9,907 bases of DNA from a virus (Duplodnaviria > Heunggongvirae > Uroviricota > Caudoviricetes), in IMG/VR virus record IMGVR_UViG_2534682160_000014. One strand, 5' to 3'. Made by a program: the position numbers and the translations under genes. Shown here piece by piece: positions 1,739 to 9,616 of the stretch (position 1 is the stretch's first letter; the number at the start of each line of letters is the position of its first letter). The notes beneath the pieces were generated by a model. The model saw only the letters and a program-made list of their open reading frames with translations, was not told where the DNA came from and made no database searches.

Positions 1739-1944
1739 ATGGAAGCAATCAAAAAAGTCATCTTTCGCCAGGAAGTAAAAAACTTATCCATATTAAGGCA
1801 GACAGCACGCTGCAAAGCATGATCAACGCCGGAGAATTCCCGCAGGGTTTTCGTGTCGGTTTGCGCCGTCGCGGATGGTATGAGGAAGACGTAATCGCAT
1901 GGATGAAAGAACGCGAACAAGAAGCGCGCGGAACGACCGCTTAA
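1739..1944 (+). pseudogene. alpA: AlpA-family (phage transcriptional regulator) gene, apparently disrupted by a 1-nt frameshift in an A6 tract, or a sequencing error at the homopolymer
   Basis: ATG at 1739 with an SD (GAGGT, 1726-1730) opens a frame reading MEAIKKVIFRQEVKN... that stops at TGA 1820-1822. The AlpA-like HTH and C-terminus (…DSTLQSMINAGEFPQGFRVGLRRRGWYEEDVIAWMKERE…) are in the -1 frame, open from 1688 to TAA 1942-1944 but with no ATG/GTG/TTG start upstream of 1819. The frames can be joined at A6 (1777-1782); one extra A gives a continuous 68-aa AlpA-like protein. Confidence 0.55.
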
Positions 1945-1969
1945 CATATATAGGGCAAATGATGAACAT

Positions 1970-1995
1970 AAAAAAAGCGGCCCCGAAATGGAGCC
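1970..1995 (-). terminator. Probable intrinsic terminator for the leftward operon ending at 2066
   Basis: On the minus strand: GGCUCC-AUUUC-GGGGCC hairpin (includes a G-U pair) followed by a U7 run (plus-strand A-run 1970-1976). Lies ~70 nt downstream of the minus-strand stop at 2066-2068. Confidence 0.4.
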
Positions 1996-2065
1996 ACCTT
2001 TCTGAACAATTAACCCGCTGCGCCGTATGTGTCAACAATCATAAGCCTGGGCATGATAACCGCGA

Positions 2066-2269
2066 TCAGGCTGGTGGGCAATTATCTTTCTTGTTGGGGC
2101 CGTATTGTGCTGCCATTTTCATCCGTTCAGAACGTGAATATTTTTTTAGAAACTCATCAAGGACAAAAGCGCATGGTGCGAATCTTTCTGATTCATGCTC
2201 GAGCGCCATATTTTCGTGCTCTCTGTTCGTTTTTTGCGATGGTGTATCGATTGATTCTTTATTGGTCAT
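2066..2269 (-). CDS. Hypothetical small protein (67 aa), second gene of leftward module B; paralog of the 2720..2947 product
   Basis: ORF MTNKES…NCPPA. The start ATG is 9 nt downstream of the conserved 44-nt element. It shares the MTN start and an internal C-A-x-x-x-x-E-x-L block with the 75-aa paralog. Confidence 0.5.
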   Translation of the reverse strand: MTNKESIDTPSQKTNREHENMALEHESERFAPCAFVLDEFLKKYSRSERMKMAAQYGPNKKDNCPPA

Positions 2270-2277
2270 TGTGTGTA

Positions 2278-2321
2278 CCTGTAAAGCAATGCGCCGTAGT
2301 ACCTCACGCCACGGCGCTGAT
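2278..2321 (-). repeat. Conserved 44-nt intergenic hairpin element, copy 1 (between the RHH stop and the small-protein start)
   Basis: mRNA sense: AUCAGCGCCGUGGCGUGAGGUACUACGGCGCAUUGCUUUACAGG. 7-bp stem GCGCCGU/ACGGCGC, 13-nt loop containing GAGGU. Matches 2956-2999 at 43 of 44 positions, with identical placement (begins 5 nt after the upstream stop, ends 9 nt before the downstream ATG). Confidence 0.7.
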
Positions 2322-2326
2322 GTTTT

Positions 2327-2500
2327 TTATCCTTTGGGTTCAATACCGCGTTGCTGTAATTCTTTTCGGAGTACTCGCTTGATCCAGGTGGCTAAAGAAG
2401 TGTCACCGTCTGCTTTCGCTGCCTCTTCAAGTTGTGCTCTGAATTCTTCTGGTAGCCGCATTTGGTATGGAGGCGATCGCTTTTTCAATGGTGTTGACAT
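2327..2500 (-). CDS. Arc/Mnt-like ribbon-helix-helix transcriptional repressor (57 aa)
   Basis: Not in the ORF track (short). Translation from ATG (complement of 2498-2500): MSTPLKKRSPPYQMRLPEEFRAQLEEAAKADGDTSLATWIKRVLRKELQQRGIEPKG. The PYQMRLPEEF beta-strand followed by two helices matches the Arc-type RHH pattern. The start codon sits inside a palindromic operator. Confidence 0.7.
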   Translation of the reverse strand: MSTPLKKRSPPYQMRLPEEFRAQLEEAAKADGDTSLATWIKRVLRKELQQRGIEPKG

Positions 2501-2546
2501 GGTAATTACCCTTAATTACTATAGTTACATGGTAATTACCATTGTA
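2494..2546. promoter_or_regulatory. Divergent promoter/operator region of module B
   Basis: Perfect 10-bp palindrome ggtaattacc at 2501-2510 and 2531-2540 (each preceded by acat), plus a partial copy taattac at 2514-2520. Plus strand: TTGACA (2494-2499) - 17 bp - TACTAT (2517-2522). Minus strand: TTGTTT (2568..2563) - 16 bp - TACAAT (2546..2541). Operators overlap both promoters and the RHH start codon. Confidence 0.6.
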
Positions 2547-2562
2547 CTTACCGTTATACAAA

Positions 2563-2609
2563 AAACAACGCCCCGCAGTGGTGGCTCACATACGGGGCGT
2601 CTAACCAAA
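2563..2609. repeat. Conserved hairpin element M2, copy 1; terminator-like on the minus strand and 5' leader on the plus strand
   Basis: Outer stem cgccccg (2569-2575) / cggggcg (2593-2599), inner stem gtg/cac, variable apical loop. On the minus strand it is followed by UUGUUUUUUGU. The paralogous copy at 3303-3349 has identical stems and a different apical loop. Confidence 0.6.
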
Positions 2610-2680
2610 CCATTAATTGAGGTAACGATTATGGCTATAAAAGAGCATAGCTTACTCTTTATACACACACAAACGCCCCG

Positions 2681-2700
2681 GAAACGGAATAATCCGTTTC
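2681..2700. terminator. Hairpin (8-bp stem gaaacgga / tccgtttc, loop ATAA) just downstream of the 2720..2947 minus-strand gene; possible terminator or attenuator
   Basis: Perfect inverted repeat seen directly. U/G-rich sequence follows on the minus strand and a T-rich stretch on the plus strand. Function not resolved. Confidence 0.35.
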
Positions 2701-2719
2701 ATAGTTCGGTTTTGTGTAC

Positions 2720-2947
2720 TCATCCTGGCGGGCGATTCTTACGGGACTTTAGCCGCCGTGGGCAGCTTGCTAAAAATGCCTCCAACGCGAATAGTCCAGG
2801 TTTCATTTCTATCGGTATTAGTTGGATATTCAGAGGATTAGCCAGTTCGGCTTCAAGGCGAGCACAGGTTTCTAACTGCCTTTGCCGAATGATTTCATCT
2901 TCTTGCGTCTGCGTGTCTTGTATTGGTGATAGTGTGTTGTTGGTCAT
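2720..2947 (-). CDS. Hypothetical small protein (75 aa), second gene of leftward module A; paralog of the 2066..2269 product
   Basis: ORF MTNNTLSPIQ…; the ATG is 9 nt downstream of the conserved 44-nt element copy 2. Confidence 0.5.
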   Translation of the reverse strand: MTNNTLSPIQDTQTQEDEIIRQRQLETCARLEAELANPLNIQLIPIEMKPGLFALEAFLASCPRRLKSRKNRPPG

Positions 2948-2955
2948 GGTACTGC

Positions 2956-2999
2956 CCTGTAAAGCAATGCGCCGTAGTACCTCACACCACGGCGCTGAT
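2956..2999 (-). repeat. Conserved 44-nt intergenic hairpin element, copy 2
   Basis: Differs from copy 1 at a single loop position (GGUGUGAGG vs GGCGUGAGG in mRNA sense). Same spacing to the flanking stop and start codons. Confidence 0.7.
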
Positions 3000-3004
3000 A
3001 GTGA

Positions 3005-3184
3005 TTATTCTGATTCTTTGGCCTTGCGGCGCTGGCGGCGTTTGATCTCGCCTTTTGCTGCCGTAACTAGAAATCCGGCGGTACTTTCGCCAGGTTCTTT
3101 AAGTTGCTCAATATCGGTCATTACCTCATGCGGGATTCTGACCGTTGTCATTTGTGATTTTGCGTTCTTTGCACCTGTTGCCAT
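3005..3184 (-). CDS. Ribbon-helix-helix-like small DNA-binding protein (59 aa), first gene of leftward module A
   Basis: ATG (complement of 3182-3184) preceded by SD AGGAGAA. Translation MATGAKNAKSQMTTVRIPHEVMTDIEQLKEPGESTAGFLVTAAKGEIKRRQRRKAKESE has a beta-strand (TVRIP) plus two-helix pattern and a basic tail. The 220-aa track ORF 3005..3667 is a spurious upstream extension. Confidence 0.6.
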   Translation of the reverse strand: MATGAKNAKSQMTTVRIPHEVMTDIEQLKEPGESTAGFLVTAAKGEIKRRQRRKAKESE

Positions 3185-3204
3185 TTCTGGTTCTCCTGAT
3201 AATC

Positions 3205-3297
3205 GGTGTATTTCAGTATACGCAAAAAAAAAGATAAAAAAAGTCTTGCGGTGTATTTCACTTGAATGTAGATTTAAAAATGAAGGTGAAATACACC
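3205..3297. promoter_or_regulatory. Divergent promoter/operator region of module A
   Basis: ggtgtatttca at 3205-3215; ggtgtatttcac at 3250-3261 with its perfect inverted partner gtgaaatacacc at 3286-3297 (24-bp spacer). Plus strand: TTGCGG (3246-3251) - 17 bp - TAGATT (3269-3274). The operator sequence is different from module B. Confidence 0.55.
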
Positions 3298-3302
3298 TAA
3301 AA

Positions 3303-3349
3303 CAACAACGCCCCGCAGTGATGGGAACACATACGGGGCGTCTAACCAA
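3303..3349. repeat. Conserved hairpin element M2, copy 2
   Basis: cgccccg (3309-3315) / cggggcg (3334-3340) with inner gtg/cac. T-rich on the minus-strand 3' side. Followed on the plus strand by an SD (GAGGAG) and the ATG at 3371. Confidence 0.6.
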
Positions 3350-3370
3350 CAACGTAAACGAGGAGCCGTT

Positions 3371-3571
3371 ATGGTTGCCGTAAATCATACCCCACACCTT
3401 GTACACACACAAACTGCCTTTGTGTGGCGTTTTCTGGCACTGAGTGCCGGAGAATCTCAAATCATCCACGTAACCGCCTGGACGGAACGCGAAGCGCGTA
3501 ACCGTTGCCCGTCCGGTTGTGTTGCTGTATTTGCCGCCCGTATTCGCCAGGGGGAAACCTATGCACAATAA
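3371..3571 (+). CDS. Possible leader ORF (66 aa) at the head of the rightward operon
   Basis: ATG with a good SD. The N-terminus MVAVNHTPHLVHTQT parallels MAIKEHSLLFIHTQT at the equivalent site in module B (ATG 2631). The rest has no recognisable features and overlaps the next gene's start. Coding status uncertain. Confidence 0.3.
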   Translation: MVAVNHTPHLVHTQTAFVWRFLALSAGESQIIHVTAWTEREARNRCPSGCVAVFAARIRQGETYAQ

Positions 3572-4254: not shown

Positions 4255-4554
4255 ATGAAACTTAAATATTCTGGCTTAACTGCCAGTGGCAACACTCACC
4301 CTAAATTTACGCGCGGTGATATTTACCGCGACCAGTACGGCGGCACGGTAATGATTAAGGGCGTGGCGGGACGGTGCGTAACTTACCGCCGTGAAGGTTA
4401 CGAATATGATTGCGTGATGCCTGTTTATCAGTTCCGGCGTGATTTTTCTCTGGTACAGACCGCGCCGCATAACGTGCCCACCAGCAACGCCAGCGCACGG
4501 GCAAACATCCAGAAGCTGAAAACCATGATTAACGGATTCAGGGGTAAAAAATGA
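4255..4554 (+). CDS. Hypothetical protein (99 aa)
   Basis: ATG 4255 with upstream GGAGAA. The stop overlaps the rep start (ATGA at 4551-4554), indicating translational coupling. Confidence 0.55.
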   Translation: MKLKYSGLTASGNTHPKFTRGDIYRDQYGGTVMIKGVAGRCVTYRREGYEYDCVMPVYQFRRDFSLVQTAPHNVPTSNASARANIQKLKTMINGFRGKK

Positions 4555-5960
4555 AACTGGCACCGAACGTAAAACGATTACCGAAAGATAAATACACCGA
4601 TGCGATTATTTTTGCGGGTATTGATGCTCATTCATTCGCAGAGCATTACATCATTGCACAGGCCAAAAAAGCAGGCGATCCAGTCCCTCCCGTTTATCTG
4701 GGGCGTTATCAGTTAAGCGAACTGGATAACCTCCAGATTGTTGATGATGGGCGATACAGGGCGACGGTGATACGTGCCGGAAATATTGAAGAGCCGCAGC
4801 TGTTAACCATCGCCACGAAACTGGCGATCGCCGGAGTCCAGGAGGCGCGGCTACTTTCTGAAAATTTAGAATTGCTGGAGGAATGGAGCGACCAGCTTCC
4901 ACGGCTTAGGGAGGCATGGGAACGCGGGGAAAGCCTGGTCATGAAAAAAATCCCCCAGCGAAAAACCAAGCTACCGATGAGCGTTGGATCTACCGGATAC
5001 GACACACAGCTTGATTACGTGGTAAAGGGGATTATTCCGGCATCGTCGCTTTGCAGCATATACGGGGCGAGCGGTTCCTATAAATCATTCCTTGCCGGAT
5101 CGTGGGCGTGTCACGTTTCCACGGGCCGCCAGTGGGGAGGCCGCAGGGTGGCGCATGGCGCTGTTCTCTATGTGGTTGGTGAAGGCGGTATAGGCGTTCC
5201 GCGTCGTGTAAAAGCCTGGGAGGTTGTGCACGATGAGCAGGTGAAAAATCTGTATCTGGTAAACCGTCCCATCTTTCCGGCTGCCCCGCTTGATATTGAT
5301 GAAATGGTTATCGCTGCCAGCCAGGTGGAGCGGGAAACGGGTAAACCGGTCCGAATGATTATTCTGGATACGCTGGCGCGTTGCTTTGGCGGCAATGATG
5401 AAAATGATTCCCGTGATATGGGGGCGTTTATCCGTGGGTGTGACGAACTGAAACGGCGCACAGGGGCCACGGTGCTGGTGGTTCACCATTCCGGCAAGGA
5501 TGAGACGAAAGGCGCGCGCGGTTCCAGTGCATTTCGTGCATCACTGGATGCTGAATACCGGATACGCAGGGAGGACGCAGGAAGCGAAGCGCTGGTTATC
5601 TCATGCACCAAAATGAAGGACGCGGAGGAACTCAAAGAAGCCGCATATGACTTACGCGTGGTGGAGCTTTTTACCGACGCTGACGGTGAGTTAATCACGT
5701 CGCTGGTGGTGGTGGATAAGCCGCGCCCTCCCGTTGAACTGGAGCGCATCGAGGAGGCAGGGAACAAGACGGAGAATCACGCCGCGCTATGGCAGTGCAT
5801 CAGAACACGAACAGCACACGGGGAGGCGTGCACTATCGCCCTTCTCCGCGACGATATGAAAAAGCTGGGGTATGAGATGAAGCACTTCCGGCGCTGGCTG
5901 TACAAGCTGGAAAATGATGGCGTAATCGTTATTGACGGTGATGACGTGCGCCCGCTGTAA
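4551..5960 (+). CDS. Replication initiator / helicase-like ATPase (RepA / AAA_25-like, RecA-fold) of the island
   Basis: 469 aa. P-loop-like GASGSYKS (5064-5087), and HHSGKDETKGARGSSAF, a motif typical of RepA/DnaB-like AAA_25 ATPases. An iteron array starts immediately downstream of the stop. Confidence 0.75.
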   Translation: MKLAPNVKRLPKDKYTDAIIFAGIDAHSFAEHYIIAQAKKAGDPVPPVYLGRYQLSELDNLQIVDDGRYRATVIRAGNIEEPQLLTIATKLAIAGVQEARLLSENLELLEEWSDQLPRLREAWERGESLVMKKIPQRKTKLPMSVGSTGYDTQLDYVVKGIIPASSLCSIYGASGSYKSFLAGSWACHVSTGRQWGGRRVAHGAVLYVVGEGGIGVPRRVKAWEVVHDEQVKNLYLVNRPIFPAAPLDIDEMVIAASQVERETGKPVRMIILDTLARCFGGNDENDSRDMGAFIRGCDELKRRTGATVLVVHHSGKDETKGARGSSAFRASLDAEYRIRREDAGSEALVISCTKMKDAEELKEAAYDLRVVELFTDADGELITSLVVVDKPRPPVELERIEEAGNKTENHAALWQCIRTRTAHGEACTIALLRDDMKKLGYEMKHFRRWLYKLENDGVIVIDGDDVRPL

Positions 5961-6165
5961 AAAGTGGGGAGTAAAAGTGGGGAGAGTGGGGGATTTAACA
6001 AAATTGAAACATAATTACCCACTTTCCCACCTGTATACACCCAAAAAAGTGGGGAGTAAAAAACATATTGAAAAACATAACGTTAGAATCACAAAAAAAA
6101 GAGGTGGGGAGACGGTGGGTAATTTCAAAAAGTGGGGAGCAAAAGTGGGGAGTAGTGGGGAATGA
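5960..6165 (+). repeat. Iteron-type replication origin (ori)
   Basis: Eight or more direct copies of (A)AAAGTGGGGAG and variants at about 5963, 5976, 5985, 6048, 6103, 6131, 6145 and 6154; one inverted partial copy (cccacttt, 6018-6025); AT-rich spacers at 6001-6017 and 6057-6100. Positioned directly 3' of rep. Confidence 0.75.
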
Positions 6166-6413
6166 ACAGAAAAACCAGAGATAAGACAGCGCCAAAATAT
6201 AAAGCGTTAGACATGACAGAGCACGCCTTAAAGGTGGCAATCAGAACGATAGACCGCCACGCGGGGGAAGGATACGCGAAGGAACATCCCGACCTGATAA
6301 GCGCATTCATGACCACAGCAGCGGCAAACTTTGCCACGCTGACAGAACGGGAGATTGCCGAAGCGGAACAGGTAACAACCATCAACGTTAAAACCGGAGA
6401 GGGGGCAGTATGA
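6162..6413 (+). CDS. Hypothetical protein (83 aa)
   Basis: ATG 6162 lies inside the last iteron (GGAG 8 nt upstream). The stop overlaps the ssb start (ATGA at 6410-6413). Confidence 0.5.
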   Translation: MNRKTRDKTAPKYKALDMTEHALKVAIRTIDRHAGEGYAKEHPDLISAFMTTAAANFATLTEREIAEAEQVTTINVKTGEGAV

Positions 6414-6820
6414 CGGCACAGATAGCCGCTTACGGGCGGCTGGTGGACGACCCGCAGGTAAAACAGACCAGCAAGGGCACACCAATGACGCTGGCTCGTA
6501 TGGCGGTATCGCTGCCATGCAGCCAGGCACAGGACGGACAGGCGACGTTATGGCTGTCGGTCATCGCATTTGGCAAGCAGGCCGACTACCTGGCTAAACA
6601 TCAAAAAGGCGATGTTGCCAGCGTATCCGGCACGATACAGGTTAGCCAGTGGACCGGACAGAACGGGGAAACGCGGCAGGGTTATCAGGTTATCGCAGAC
6701 AGTGTAATCAGTGCCAGTGCTGCCCGTCCTGGCGGGAGCCGACGCAAGACCACAGGCACACAGGGTAATCAGCCACCAGCTGGAGGCGATGACCCCTACG
6801 GTGACAATATTCCTTTCTGA
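6410..6820 (+). CDS. ssb: Single-stranded DNA-binding protein
   Basis: 136 aa. OB-fold-like N-terminal region (…GRLVDDPQVKQT…WLSVIAFGKQADYLAKHQKGD…), Gly/Pro-rich linker, and an acidic C-terminal tail DDPYGDNIPF matching the SSB DDDIPF-type tip. Confidence 0.8.
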   Translation: MTAQIAAYGRLVDDPQVKQTSKGTPMTLARMAVSLPCSQAQDGQATLWLSVIAFGKQADYLAKHQKGDVASVSGTIQVSQWTGQNGETRQGYQVIADSVISASAARPGGSRRKTTGTQGNQPPAGGDDPYGDNIPF

Positions 6821-6828
6821 ACATCATG

Positions 6829-6851
6829 GCCGGAGAAAATCCGGCTTTTTT
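6829..6851 (+). terminator. Rho-independent terminator after ssb
   Basis: gccgg-agaaaat-ccggc hairpin followed by T6 (6846-6851). Confidence 0.8.
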
Positions 6852-6856
6852 GTAGG

Positions 6857-6926
6857 TACTCCTGGTGGGGGTGGCCTGTCCACGGGGCGGGAGGGCGCGG
6901 AAAAAGGCGCATTTTTTGATTTTTAT
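6857..6926 (+). repeat. Conserved G-rich repeat R, copy 1 (immediately after the terminator)
   Basis: tactcctggtgggggtggcctgtccacggggcgggagggcgcggaaaaaggcgcattttttgatttttat. About 85% identical over ~65 bp to 9393-9460, at the same distance from the preceding stop codon. Confidence 0.7.
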
Positions 6927-9365: not shown

Positions 9366-9387
9366 GGCGGCACCAGCCGCCTTTTTT
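9366..9387 (+). terminator. Rho-independent terminator after the capsid gene
   Basis: ggcggc-acca-gccgcc hairpin followed by T6 (9382-9387). Confidence 0.8.
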
Positions 9388-9392
9388 GCGGG

Positions 9393-9460
9393 TCCTCCTG
9401 GTGGGGTGGGCCTGAACACGGGGCGGGCGGCGCGGAAAAAAGCGCATTTTTGTGATTTTA
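9393..9460 (+). repeat. Conserved G-rich repeat R, copy 2
   Basis: tcctcctggtggggtgggcctgaacacggggcgggcggcgcggaaaaaagcgcatttttgtgatttta; followed by a (CAT)4 run at 9466-9477. Confidence 0.7.
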
Positions 9461-9616
9461 TCGTCATCATCATCATGTGTGTAACCTGTTGTTTTTAATG
9501 TGGTTGATGCAAAAAAGATGATGATTGCGGTTAATTTTTGTTCGACATCTTTTAGCGTGACAGATTCTTTACAAAAAATCTGAGCTTGTTTTCTTCACCA
9601 GCGCGATGGGGGCACA

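What the first reader, a model, noticed from the sequence alone, without database searches (positions are those of the whole stretch)
2631..2700. Conserved short N-terminal peptide (…H-T-Q-T) after each M2 hairpin, followed by a second hairpin
The ATGs at 2631 and 3371 open with MAIKEHSLLFIHTQT and MVAVNHTPHLVHTQT. The nucleotides tacacacacaaac are identical in both, and each is followed by a stem-loop (2681-2700; 3438-3450). The module B frame continues as an implausible Cys/Ser-rich antisense read-through, so the conserved part may be a leader peptide or a nucleotide-level site rather than a protein.
Basis: partly seen in the sequence, partly recalled or inferred. Interest (0 to 1): 0.45.

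Follow-up and report, generated by a model that had tools for sequence, protein, structure and literature searches.

The report
Icd-like gene start and truncated twin
The two "conserved peptides" are the starts of two copies of a small phage-type (Icd-like) gene in an E. coli phage satellite, one intact and one cut off after 15 codons; the hairpin in front of each is built to work on the opposite strand, which points to an undescribed antisense RNA control.

Summary
ATG 2631 and ATG 3371 open MAIKEHSLLFIHTQT and MVAVNHTPHLVHTQT, and TACACACACAAAC sits at the same offset in both (2662-2674, 3402-3414).

- **ORF 3371-3571** is an intact 66-aa Icd-like gene (NCBIfam 64 bits, cutoff 25).
- **ORF 2631** is a 15-codon stub of a second icd-like gene. 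Other E. coli satellites carry MAIKEHSLLFIHTQT on a full-length Icd, and homology ends at 2675/2676.
- **HTQT** belongs to a protein motif, H[TS]Q[TN]AF[VI]WRF, which relatives keep with other codons.
- **The "second hairpins"** are not homologous. 2681-2700 lies in the 3' flank of the convergent minus-strand operon; 3406-3426 and 3429-3455 lie inside icd.

New: the M2 hairpin is a minus-strand structure. In 20 variants it has 24 G·U cells on the minus strand and none on the plus strand, followed by a T-rich tail. That makes it a terminator for a transcript antisense to the icd start. The invariant nucleotides (CATA, ACACAA, 17 nt apart) fit its -10 and -35; this is inferred.

The stub's frame is stop-free for 499 codons (1884-3383), far beyond chance. 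This is unexplained.

The parts
2494..2522 (+). Promoter-like site P_A (TTGACA-17-TACTAT) between operator-like inverted repeats ATGGTAATTACC (2499-2510, 2531-2542)
   Evidence: 10 of 12 consensus matches; repeat I9.
2557..2600 (-). M2(A): hairpin 2568-2600 plus T-rich tail (minus strand CGGGGCGTTGTTTTTTG), read as an intrinsic terminator for minus-strand RNA
   Evidence: Antisense fold -22.1 against sense -18.0 kcal/mol. Across the family, all 24 G.U cells are on the minus strand.
2601..2630 (+). Leader with the invariant TCTAACCA and the SD GAGGT (2619-2623)
   Evidence: TCTAACCA in 36 of 37 leader variants.
2631..2675 (+). 15-codon stub of an icd-like gene (MAIKEHSLLFIHTQT). Homology to intact icd ends at 2675/2676.
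   Evidence: P0036 is the same N-terminus on a full 65-aa Icd; three-way alignment; stub plus junction in 110 of 5426 E. coli genomes.
2644..2672 (-). Candidate antisense promoter A: -35-like TTGTGT (2672..2667), 17-nt spacer, -10-like TATGCT (2649..2644)
   Evidence: Read from the sequence; conservation pattern. Not listed by the consensus scan. Inferred.
2681..2700 (.). 8-bp hairpin in the 3' flank of the convergent minus-strand operon (3184..2720). An outer stem ACACAAAC/GTTTTGTGT can enclose it.
   Evidence: Absent from the single-module relative L074.
2720..3184 (-). Module B minus-strand operon: YlcI/YnfO-family small DNA-binding protein (3005-3184) and a 75-aa protein (2720-2947)
   Evidence: NF041551, E 3.8e-17; RefSeq annotation of relatives.
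3297..3341 (-). M2(B): hairpin 3308-3341 plus T-rich tail (CGGGGCGTTGTTGTTTT), a minus-strand terminator
   Evidence: antisense -21.6 against sense -18.0 kcal/mol.
3371..3571 (+). Intact Icd-like gene, 66 aa. The profile covers aa 17-60; HTQT is aa 12-15.
   Evidence: NF033153, 64.4 bits, cutoff 25; 113 homologues; annotated Icd-like in relatives.
3384..3412 (-). Candidate antisense promoter B: -35-like TTGTGT (3412..3407), 17-nt spacer, -10-like TATGAT (3389..3384). Predicted RNA about 3377..3300.
   Evidence: Read from the sequence; CATA and CACACACAAAC invariant among 23 distinct 5' ends while the flanks vary; the 91-nt minus-strand RNA folds as two hairpins, z -3.1. Inferred.
3406..3455 (+). 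Two hairpins inside the icd coding sequence: 3406-3426 (8 bp, followed by GCGTTTTCTG) and 3429-3455 (12 bp with 3 G.U on the plus strand)
   Evidence: -24.4 kcal/mol, z -3.4. Absent from the C4-type and MRNHT-type relatives.
1884..3383 (+). Stop-free frame of 499 codons. It contains the stub ATG 2631 and ends 10 nt after icd ATG 3371.

Best explanation
The window is an Escherichia phage satellite: integrase, AlpA-type regulator, RepA helicase, SSB, head protease and capsid. It carries two stacked control modules. Each module has a small repressor-like operon on the minus strand and, diverging from it, a promoter, the M2 element and the start of an icd-like gene.

Shown:
- ATG 3371 starts an intact 66-aa Icd-like gene.
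- ATG 2631 starts only the first 15 codons of a second icd-like gene. That gene was cut at 2675/2676, where the 3' flank of the neighbouring minus-strand operon is joined on.
- The shared peptide end and the 13-nt identity are common descent of two icd 5' ends.
- HTQT is the beginning of the protein motif H[TS]Q[TN]AF[VI]WRF that leads into the Icd core.
- M2 is an RNA hairpin of the minus strand followed by a T-rich tail, so it is a terminator for transcription running against icd.

Inferred:
- A short antisense RNA of about 75-85 nt starts inside icd codons 2-3. Its -10-like TATG(A/C)T is the reverse complement of codons 5-7, and its -35-like TTGTGT is the reverse complement of ACACAA inside the 13-mer.
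- This RNA covers the start codon and the Shine-Dalgarno sequence, and it ends at M2.
- It would hold down icd translation, as sar RNA does for ant in P22 and C4 RNA does for icd in P1.
- This would explain why these nucleotides are invariant inside a variable peptide. It would also explain why the stub keeps exactly terminator, leader, -10 and -35 and nothing more.

Sub-confidences: icd start plus truncated stub 0.9; M2 acting on the minus strand 0.8; an antisense RNA over the icd start 0.55; this particular promoter 0.4.
For: - **Icd-like identity.** NF033153 scores 64.4 bits against a cutoff of 25, over aa 17-60. There are 113 homologues, mostly named Icd-like. RefSeq annotates the same gene in relatives.
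- **Stub.** P0036 is MAIKEHSLLFIHTQT followed by a full Icd core. It is encoded in single-module satellites L068-L071. The three-way alignment shows module A identical to L068 up to ...ACACACAAACG, and then unrelated.
- **Protein-level motif.** The variants [28 protein letters not shown] and HSQNTFI all occur. The C4-type relatives encode H-S-Q-T as CAT TCT CAA ACN, without the 13-mer or the hairpin. The Thr-15 codon varies among ACT, ACG, ACA and ACC.
- **M2 strand.** Among 22 variants the antisense fold averages -21.9 against -16.9 kcal/mol for the sense fold, and is the more stable in 20 of 22. On a 20-sequence alignment 95.8% of cells pair on the minus strand, and two pairs show compensatory double changes. 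The cell counts are 227 Watson-Crick plus 24 G.U plus 11 mismatches on the minus strand, against 227 plus 0 plus 35 on the plus strand. The first 10 nt 3' of the minus-strand stem hold 6.1 T on average.
- **Promoter pattern.** Among 23 distinct 5' ends only ATGG, CATA and CACACACAAAC are invariant. Codon 5 varies among N, Q and E but keeps its middle A. Codon 7 varies among T, I and S but keeps its first A. The spacer is always 17 nt. CATA is present in all 37 M2-type leaders, including the unrelated MRNHT and MAGLQ N-termini, and is absent from the C4-type.
- **Retention.** The stub plus junction is kept at 95% identity or more in 110 of 5426 complete E. coli genomes, behind three different operator types.
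- **Parallel arrangement.** Relatives have Rfam isrK plus C4 at the position of M2.
Against: - The proposed promoter is weak by consensus: 3 of 6 plus 5 of 6 in module B, and 3 of 6 plus 4 of 6 in module A. The promoter scan does not list it, and sites this weak are common by chance.
- No expression data could be consulted, and no paper describing this RNA was found.
- Conservation of CATA and ACACAA is confounded with protein coding and with close relatedness of the sequences.
- The 24-to-0 G.U count sits at 6 pair positions in related sequences, so the number of independent events is small.
- E. coli strain 10 (L001) has lost M2(A) and the stub by a deletion between AACGCCCCG repeats. The stub unit is therefore dispensable at least there.
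- The better folding of the minus-strand leader (21 of 21 variants) is expected from its G/U-rich composition alone.
- tblastn did not link this protein to P1 Icd itself.
Confidence: 0.6

Rival explanations
1. Plain relic. The 2631 ORF is a decaying remnant of an icd-like gene left by recombination between satellites. The 13-nt identity and the shared peptide reflect recent common ancestry only. M2 merely insulates the repressor promoter from stray antisense transcription, and no dedicated antisense RNA exists.
For: Homology ends abruptly at 2675/2676. The junction shares AAACG with intact icd. L001 has deleted M2(A) plus the stub between 9-bp repeats without losing either repressor operon. 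PGAP calls no gene there in most genomes. The putative promoter is below the consensus threshold. All M2-type sequences are closely related, so invariance is weak evidence.
Against: In single-module satellites every gene to the right of M2 is on the plus strand. A conserved, compensated minus-strand terminator therefore has nothing obvious to terminate except an antisense transcript. The stub is kept at 95% identity or more in 110 genomes behind three operator types. It ends 3 nt beyond the -35-like hexamer. Its reading frame stays open for 205-355 codons in all 11 stub-bearing loci that hold the full sequence.
Confidence: 0.28
2. Plus-strand leader-peptide attenuation. Translation of the first 15 or so codons controls formation of the downstream hairpin, and so controls read-through into the operon.
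For: Hairpin 3406-3426 uses the 13-mer, is followed by GCGTTTTCTG, and is flagged as terminator-like. Its five synonymous stem positions are almost invariant (one G-to-A change in 23 distinct 5' ends), while the synonymous loop position varies between T and G. In P1 and P4 (own knowledge: Biere et al. 1992; Forti et al. 1999), translation of icd or of kil/eta decides whether transcription terminates.
Against: Neither ORF is a short leader ORF: one is a 66-aa protein and the other has no stop for 250 codons. The hairpin after the stub (2681-2700) is unrelated to 3406-3426. The 3406-3426 hairpin is missing in the C4-type and MRNHT-type icd genes, which still keep the peptide motif or the CATA element. 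The stem has only 3 G-C pairs, and the T-run starts 3 nt after it. The 12-bp hairpin 3429-3455 is broken by the GCA-to-GCC change in 20 of 60 variants.
Confidence: 0.08
3. The long plus-strand ORF (494 aa from ATG 1899, or 250 aa from ATG 2631) encodes a real protein, and the conserved peptide is an internal segment of it.
For: The frame is stop-free far beyond chance and is conserved in relatives. Several relatives have a good SD plus ATG at its beginning.
Against: The translation is Cys/Ser/Arg-rich and runs through promoters, operators and two terminator hairpins. It has no Pfam or NCBIfam match and is not called by PGAP. The minus-strand YlcI/YnfO gene that it overlaps has a strong family match. 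Its length and end point change from locus to locus.
Confidence: 0.04

Closest known systems
Phage P1/P7 immI operon (c4 antisense RNA - icd - ant)
   Same: A small icd(-like) gene is the first cistron of an operon and is preceded by an RNA element that acts on its ribosome-binding region. In relatives of this satellite the very same position holds Rfam C4 (with isrK) in front of an icd-like gene.
   Different: The window has no C4 or isrK match. M2 is a single hairpin that works on the opposite strand, so any RNA would be a cis-antisense transcript rather than a trans-acting RNA processed from the sense leader. No ant gene follows. tblastn did not connect the protein to P1 Icd itself.
Phage P22 immI (mnt / arc-ant with sar antisense RNA)
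   Same: Small repressor genes (weak, sub-threshold Arc similarity) next to a promoter. There would be a short antisense RNA whose promoter lies inside the 5' end of the regulated gene and whose rho-independent terminator lies upstream of that gene's ribosome-binding site. The P22 details are from own knowledge (Liao et al. 1987; Wu et al. 1987); sar is listed as inhibiting anti-repression in PMC5415839.
   Different: There is no sequence or Rfam similarity to sar. The regulated gene is icd-like, not ant. The antisense RNA here is predicted, not observed.
Satellite phage P4 immunity leader (CI RNA, seqA/B/C, kil-eta translation controlling termination)
   Same: Both are satellites with an integrase, a Vis/AlpA-type regulator and a primase/helicase operon. 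In both, RNA-level control would sit at the start of the replication operon, with translation of the leader region plausibly deciding read-through (own knowledge: Forti et al. 1999).
   Different: CI RNA belongs to the C4 family, which is absent from this window. The divergent repressor modules and the stacked two-module layout are not P4 features.
Gram-negative PICIs and capsid-forming PICIs of E. coli (EcCICFT073 type)
   Same: The int-alpA-replication-packaging layout. AlpA is the activator whose transcript continues into downstream genes (PMC6092414).
   Different: That work states that a global repressor in these elements is unclear. The repressor-like modules, the M2 element and the icd-like gene described here are not discussed there.

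Membership tests
Icd-like protein (NCBIfam NF033153 phage_ICD_like) | Profile HMM score above the curated cutoff | tested here: met
   ORF 3371-3571 scores 64.4 bits against a cutoff of 25, E 7.4e-18, profile positions 1-48 on aa 17-60.
Icd-like protein (NCBIfam NF033153 phage_ICD_like) | The same, for the ORF starting at 2631 | tested here: not met
   No NF033153 hit for 2631-3383. Only codons 1-15 resemble icd, and they lie outside the profile.
Icd-like protein (NCBIfam NF033153 phage_ICD_like) | Detectable similarity to the founding protein, P1 Icd | tested here: inconclusive
   tblastn against 50,697 phage records gave one hit (vB_KppS-Ant) and none in P1 or P7. Whether a P1 record is in the collection was not checked.
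Icd-like protein (NCBIfam NF033153 phage_ICD_like) | Inhibits host cell division | not testable with these tools
   Needs expression in E. coli and microscopy.
C4 / CI antisense RNA (Rfam RF01695) with isrK (RF01394) | Covariance-model match upstream of icd | tested here: not met
   No match in the window even at E up to 1. Positive control: L003, L020 and L073 score 75-78 bits for C4 and 62-66 bits for isrK.
sar-type cis-antisense RNA | Rho-independent terminator on the strand opposite the target, upstream of the target's ribosome-binding site | tested here: met
   M2: 95.8% of cells paired on the minus strand; 24 G.U on the minus strand against 0 on the plus strand; T-rich 3' tail.
sar-type cis-antisense RNA | Promoter on the antisense strand inside the 5' end of the target gene | tested here: inconclusive
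   TTGTGT-17-TATGAT and TTGTGT-17-TATGCT are conserved but below the scan threshold.
sar-type cis-antisense RNA | The RNA is made and represses translation | not testable with these tools
   Needs Northern blot, dRNA-seq and reporter fusions.
sar-type cis-antisense RNA | Sequence or structure match to Rfam sar (RF00262) | tested here: not met
   The scan of all 4227 Rfam families, which should include sar, gave no match anywhere near this region.
Leader-peptide transcription attenuator | A short ORF that ends before or within alternative terminator and antiterminator hairpins | tested here: not met
   The 2631 ORF has no stop for 250 codons. The 3371 ORF is a 66-aa protein. The downstream hairpins are unrelated.
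YlcI/YnfO small DNA-binding protein (module repressor candidate) | Profile match above the cutoff | tested here: met
   3005-3184(-) scores 62.1 bits against a cutoff of 30. 2327-2500(-) scores only 20.1 bits, below the cutoff, and has a weak Arc hit.

The most novel reading that the evidence does not exclude
The stop-free plus-strand frame (1884-3383, 499 codons) is a selected 'ribosome bridge'. Transcripts that start at alpA or at P_A must cross 0.7-1.4 kb of sequence antisense to the repressor modules before they reach icd and the replication operon. Keeping one frame open lets ribosomes travel with the polymerase, which would avoid Rho-dependent termination. The ribosomes are then handed to icd, because the frame ends within about 30 nt of the icd ATG or is fused to it. 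On this reading the 15-codon stub is not junk. It is the ribosome entry site of the second promoter, and the M2-terminated antisense RNAs gate that entry. This would be a cis-antisense version of the P1 and P4 rule that blocking leader translation terminates transcription.
Probability: 0.25. Interest if true: 0.8.

Novelty: new variant of a known kind. Interest (0 to 1): 0.5.

Why it matters
As written, the finding is mostly ordinary: a gene start and a truncated paralogue. The context is less ordinary in three ways.

- **A repressor-like layer in these satellites.** Gram-negative PICI-type satellites are thought to be switched on by AlpA, with no clear repressor (PMC6092414). This family carries one or two repressor-like modules in front of an icd-like gene.
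- **An uncatalogued RNA element.** A strongly conserved hairpin, not matched by any Rfam family in the scan, is shaped for the antisense strand. It occupies the place where relatives have the C4/isrK immunity RNAs. If the antisense RNA exists, it is a second, independent RNA solution to controlling icd-type operons, present in hundreds of E. coli and STEC genomes. Its variable stem and loop could set immunity specificity between co-resident satellites.
- **The stop-free frame.** If selected, it would be an unusual case of sequence kept open for the act of translation rather than for its product.

Tried and rejected
- **Rfam on the window.** A scan of all 4227 families at E up to 1 found nothing at M2, the leader or the stub.
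- **Pfam and NCBIfam on the 250-aa read-through ORF.** Only noise, so a real long protein was rejected.
- **M2 as a plus-strand leader hairpin.** I rejected it because every wobble pair is on the minus strand and the T-tract is on that side.
- **M2 loop pairing with the icd ribosome-binding site or the 13-mer, C4-style.** Inspection found no complementarity beyond 4 bp.
- **Homology of the two 'second hairpins'.** Rejected by the alignment.
- **Better antisense folding of the leader as evidence.** Discounted, because the minus-strand leader is G/U-rich and would fold better anyway.
- **Consensus promoter scan.** It does not list the proposed antisense promoter, so that promoter is kept as inference only.
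- **Search of one genome per species for relatives.** Only Shigella flexneri and Escherichia albertii were found, so no deep phylogenetic test was possible.
- **tblastn against phages.** One hit, no P1.
- **Literature.** Searches on Icd-like, the PICI/AlpA/Icd combination, c4/icd, sar and EcCICFT073/AlpA found no description of this region. The 'icd' in PMC10111431 is isocitrate dehydrogenase.
- **Clustering the upstream regions into independent types.** This gave only 6 loose clusters, so the cross-locus evidence for the open frame is not independent.

Full report
**What the window is.** The 9.9-kb window is an Escherichia phage satellite.
- It carries an integrase (1-1242), an AlpA-type regulator, a RepA-family helicase (4551-5960) followed by iterons, SSB (6410-6820), a ClpP-type head protease and a capsid gene.
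- Between alpA and the replication operon lie two stacked modules.
- Each module has two small minus-strand genes: module A, 2327-2500 and 2066-2269; module B, 3005-3184 and 2720-2947.
- Diverging from each pair are operator-like inverted repeats, a promoter region, the 'M2' hairpin, a Shine-Dalgarno sequence and an ATG.
- The same layout is annotated in RefSeq relatives as 'YlcI/YnfO family protein' followed by 'host cell division inhibitor Icd-like protein'.

**Checking the observation.**
- The peptides and the 13-nt identity are exactly as described. TACACACACAAAC sits at 2662-2674 and 3402-3414, both 31 nt after the ATG, and occurs nowhere else in the window.
- The hairpin at 2681-2700 is correct.
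- The hairpin given as 3438-3450 is really 3436-3448, and it is the tip of a 12-bp hairpin at 3429-3455.
- A further 8-bp hairpin at 3406-3426 is built from the 13-mer itself.

**What the two ATGs are.**
- ORF 3371-3571 is a bona fide Icd-like gene. NCBIfam NF033153 scores 64.4 bits against a cutoff of 25, with the profile on residues 17-60. It has 113 homologues.
- Their N-termini come in several versions: MVAVNH(T/I)P(H/R)L(V/A)[85 protein letters not shown] and MAGTQHTQTHPKYQYRF.
- HTQT is therefore the start of a protein motif, H[TS]Q[TN]AF[VI]WRF, that runs into the Icd core.
- Relatives with a different leader encode H-S-Q-T as CAT TCT CAA ACN, with no 13-mer and no hairpin.
- One homologue, P0036, is MAIKEHSLLFIHTQT followed by a complete Icd. 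That is the exact module-A peptide on an intact gene. It is encoded in single-module satellites L068-L071.
- A three-way alignment shows module A identical to L068 from the M2 3' arm to ...ACACACAAACG. From 2676 on it is unrelated, whereas L068 continues like module B.
- So the 2631 ORF is a 15-codon stub. What follows it is the 3' flank of the convergent module-B operon, including the 2681-2700 hairpin. The two 'second hairpins' are unrelated.
- The stub plus junction is present at 95% identity or more in 110 of 5426 complete E. coli genomes, usually without an annotated gene. It is found behind three different operator types.
- One lineage (L001) has deleted M2(A) plus the stub between two AACGCCCCG repeats.

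**M2 works on the other strand.** I collected about 150 related loci and found 22 distinct M2 variants.
- The minus-strand version folds to -21.9 kcal/mol on average, against -16.9 for the plus strand, and is the more stable in 20 of 22 variants.
- On an alignment of 20 variants a 14-pair stem is 95.8% paired on the minus strand. Two pairs show compensatory double changes (C-G to A-U, G-C to C-G). No shuffle in 500 reached the observed pairing.
- The same stem has 227 Watson-Crick, 24 G·U and 11 mismatched cells on the minus strand. On the plus strand it has 227, 0 and 35.
- On the minus strand the stem is followed by a T-rich tail averaging 6.1 T in 10 nt, in many different sequences. On the plus strand it is followed by the invariant CTAACCA.
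- M2 is therefore a minus-strand intrinsic terminator.
- In single-module satellites everything to its right is plus-strand. What it terminates must then be a transcript antisense to the icd start.
- At the same position, other relatives carry Rfam isrK plus C4, the P1/P4-type immunity RNAs. Rfam has nothing for M2.

**Where that transcript may start (inferred).**
- Among 23 distinct 5' ends of the HTQT-type genes, the first 45 nt are variable except ATGG, CATA (nt 16-19) and CACACACAAAC (nt 34-44). Codon 5 is N, Q or E but always xAx. Codon 7 is T, I or S but always Axx.
- Read on the minus strand, these invariant bases are TATG(A/C)T and TTGTGT separated by exactly 17 nt: 3389..3384 and 3412..3407 in module B, 2649..2644 and 2672..2667 in module A.
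- The CATA element is also present in the unrelated MRNHT and MAGLQ N-termini that follow M2-type leaders. It is absent from the C4-type genes.
- A start about 7 nt downstream would give an RNA of roughly 78 nt: a 5' hairpin with the anti-Shine-Dalgarno sequence in its loop, a single-stranded UGGUUAGA, and the M2 terminator.
- The stub retains exactly this unit, with only 3 nt beyond the -35-like hexamer.
- Caveats: the promoter is weak by consensus and the scan does not list it. The conservation is confounded with coding and with relatedness. I had no expression data. L001 shows that the module-A unit can be lost.

**How it most likely works.** The repressor-like proteins would control the divergent promoters through the inverted repeats. 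The icd-like gene is the first cistron of the replication operon. Its translation start would be held down by a cis-antisense RNA. This parallels sar RNA and ant in P22 immI, and C4 RNA and icd in P1 immI (own knowledge; sar is listed in PMC5415839). Shown: gene identities, the truncation, and the strand of M2. Inferred: the promoter, the RNA and its effect.

**An unexplained property that includes the finding.**
- The frame that starts upstream of alpA's stop and contains the stub ATG is free of stop codons for 499 codons (1884-3383). The other two plus-strand frames have 25 and 45 stops.
- It runs antisense through all four minus-strand genes, all in the same phase with third codon positions coinciding. 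It also runs through both promoter regions and both M2 elements. It ends 10 nt after the icd ATG.
- Dinucleotide shuffles never exceed 275 codons in 2000 trials.
- Codon-order shuffles of the genes combined with shuffles of the spacers give a joint probability of about 7e-9.
- Most of 67 distinct relatives have an open frame of more than 200 codons over this region (typically 230-470). A few divergent loci, such as L153 and L113, have only about 110-200. The frame either continues in frame into icd or stops at -44, -65 or -82/-84 relative to the Trp codon, with the icd ATG at -54.
- All 11 stub-bearing loci that hold the full sequence keep 205-355 codons open after the stub. A twelfth locus, L007, ends inside the stub.
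- The translation looks like junk and has no family match. The relatives are not independent, and in 7 of 12 promoter-region types the best frame still has one or two stops.
- One reading, by analogy with P4 and P1 where leader translation decides termination, is that the frame is kept open so that ribosomes accompany transcripts across the antisense region. This is speculative.

**Verdict.** The conserved peptide is the N-terminus of an Icd-like protein and of its truncated twin, which by itself is an ordinary result. I rate this a new variant of a known kind, namely RNA control of icd-type operons. The stop-free frame remains an open oddity.

Noticed in passing
window 1884-3383 (+): A 499-codon frame without stop codons runs antisense through four genes, two promoter regions and two M2 elements, and ends 10 nt after icd ATG 3371. 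Chance probability is about 1e-8. Most of 67 distinct relatives have a similar frame.
   Followed up: partly
window 2568-2600 and 3308-3341 (-): The M2 hairpin is minus-strand specific (24 G.U cells against 0) and has a T-rich tail on the minus strand. It is a terminator for antisense transcription, not a plus-strand leader hairpin.
   Followed up: yes
window about 1776-1781: alpA is frameshifted. The A-run has 6 A here against 7 in L001, so only a 41-aa C-terminal ORF (1819-1944) is left. This is either a pseudogene or a homopolymer sequencing error.
   Followed up: partly
L001 3560-3650 compared with window 2554-2680: E. coli strain 10 lacks M2(A) and the stub. A 105-bp deletion lies between direct repeats AACGCCCCG (window 2567-2575 and 2672-2680).
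   Followed up: yes
L003 4424-4762; also L020 and L073: The RefSeq 'ash family protein' pseudo-CDS lies over Rfam isrK (4553-4629) and C4 (4651-4738), so the annotated protein may be a translation of RNA genes. Some database Icd-like proteins carry N-terminal extensions that are translations of M2 or C4 leaders (for example P0014, P0046).
   Followed up: partly
window 2259-2333 and 2937-3011: A 75-nt repeat ('M1', 83% identity) lies between the two genes of each minus-strand operon. It holds a hairpin (GCGCCGTGG...CTACGGCGC) with a G.U only on the minus strand, flagged as terminator-like. It may be an intra-operon attenuator.
   Followed up: no
window 3388..3005 (-), frame open to 3667: The reverse complement of the invariant His-6 codon CAT is an ATG in frame with the YlcI/YnfO gene (a 127-aa minus ORF). 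Open frames therefore cross promoter B on both strands.
   Followed up: no
window 2499-2542 and 3205-3297: Each module has different operator-like inverted repeats: ATGGTAATTACC in module A and GGTGTATTTCAC (three copies) in module B. Relatives show at least eight further types in front of the same M2 and icd, which suggests exchangeable repressor specificities.
   Followed up: partly
window 6841-6925 and 9385-9470: An intergenic element of about 80 nt is repeated after SSB and after the capsid gene (..cctggtgggg.gggcctg.acacggggcggg..gcgcggaaaaaa.gcgcattttt..).
   Followed up: no
window 5960-6160: Multiple AAAGTGGGGAG iterons lie directly after the RepA helicase gene. This is probably the satellite replication origin.
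   Followed up: no
phage record LR881103.1 (hit H47): The only tblastn hit of the Icd-like protein among 50,697 phage records is a 16.5-kb 'induced prophage' (vB_KppS-Ant), probably another satellite. No P1 or P7 match was found.
   Followed up: no
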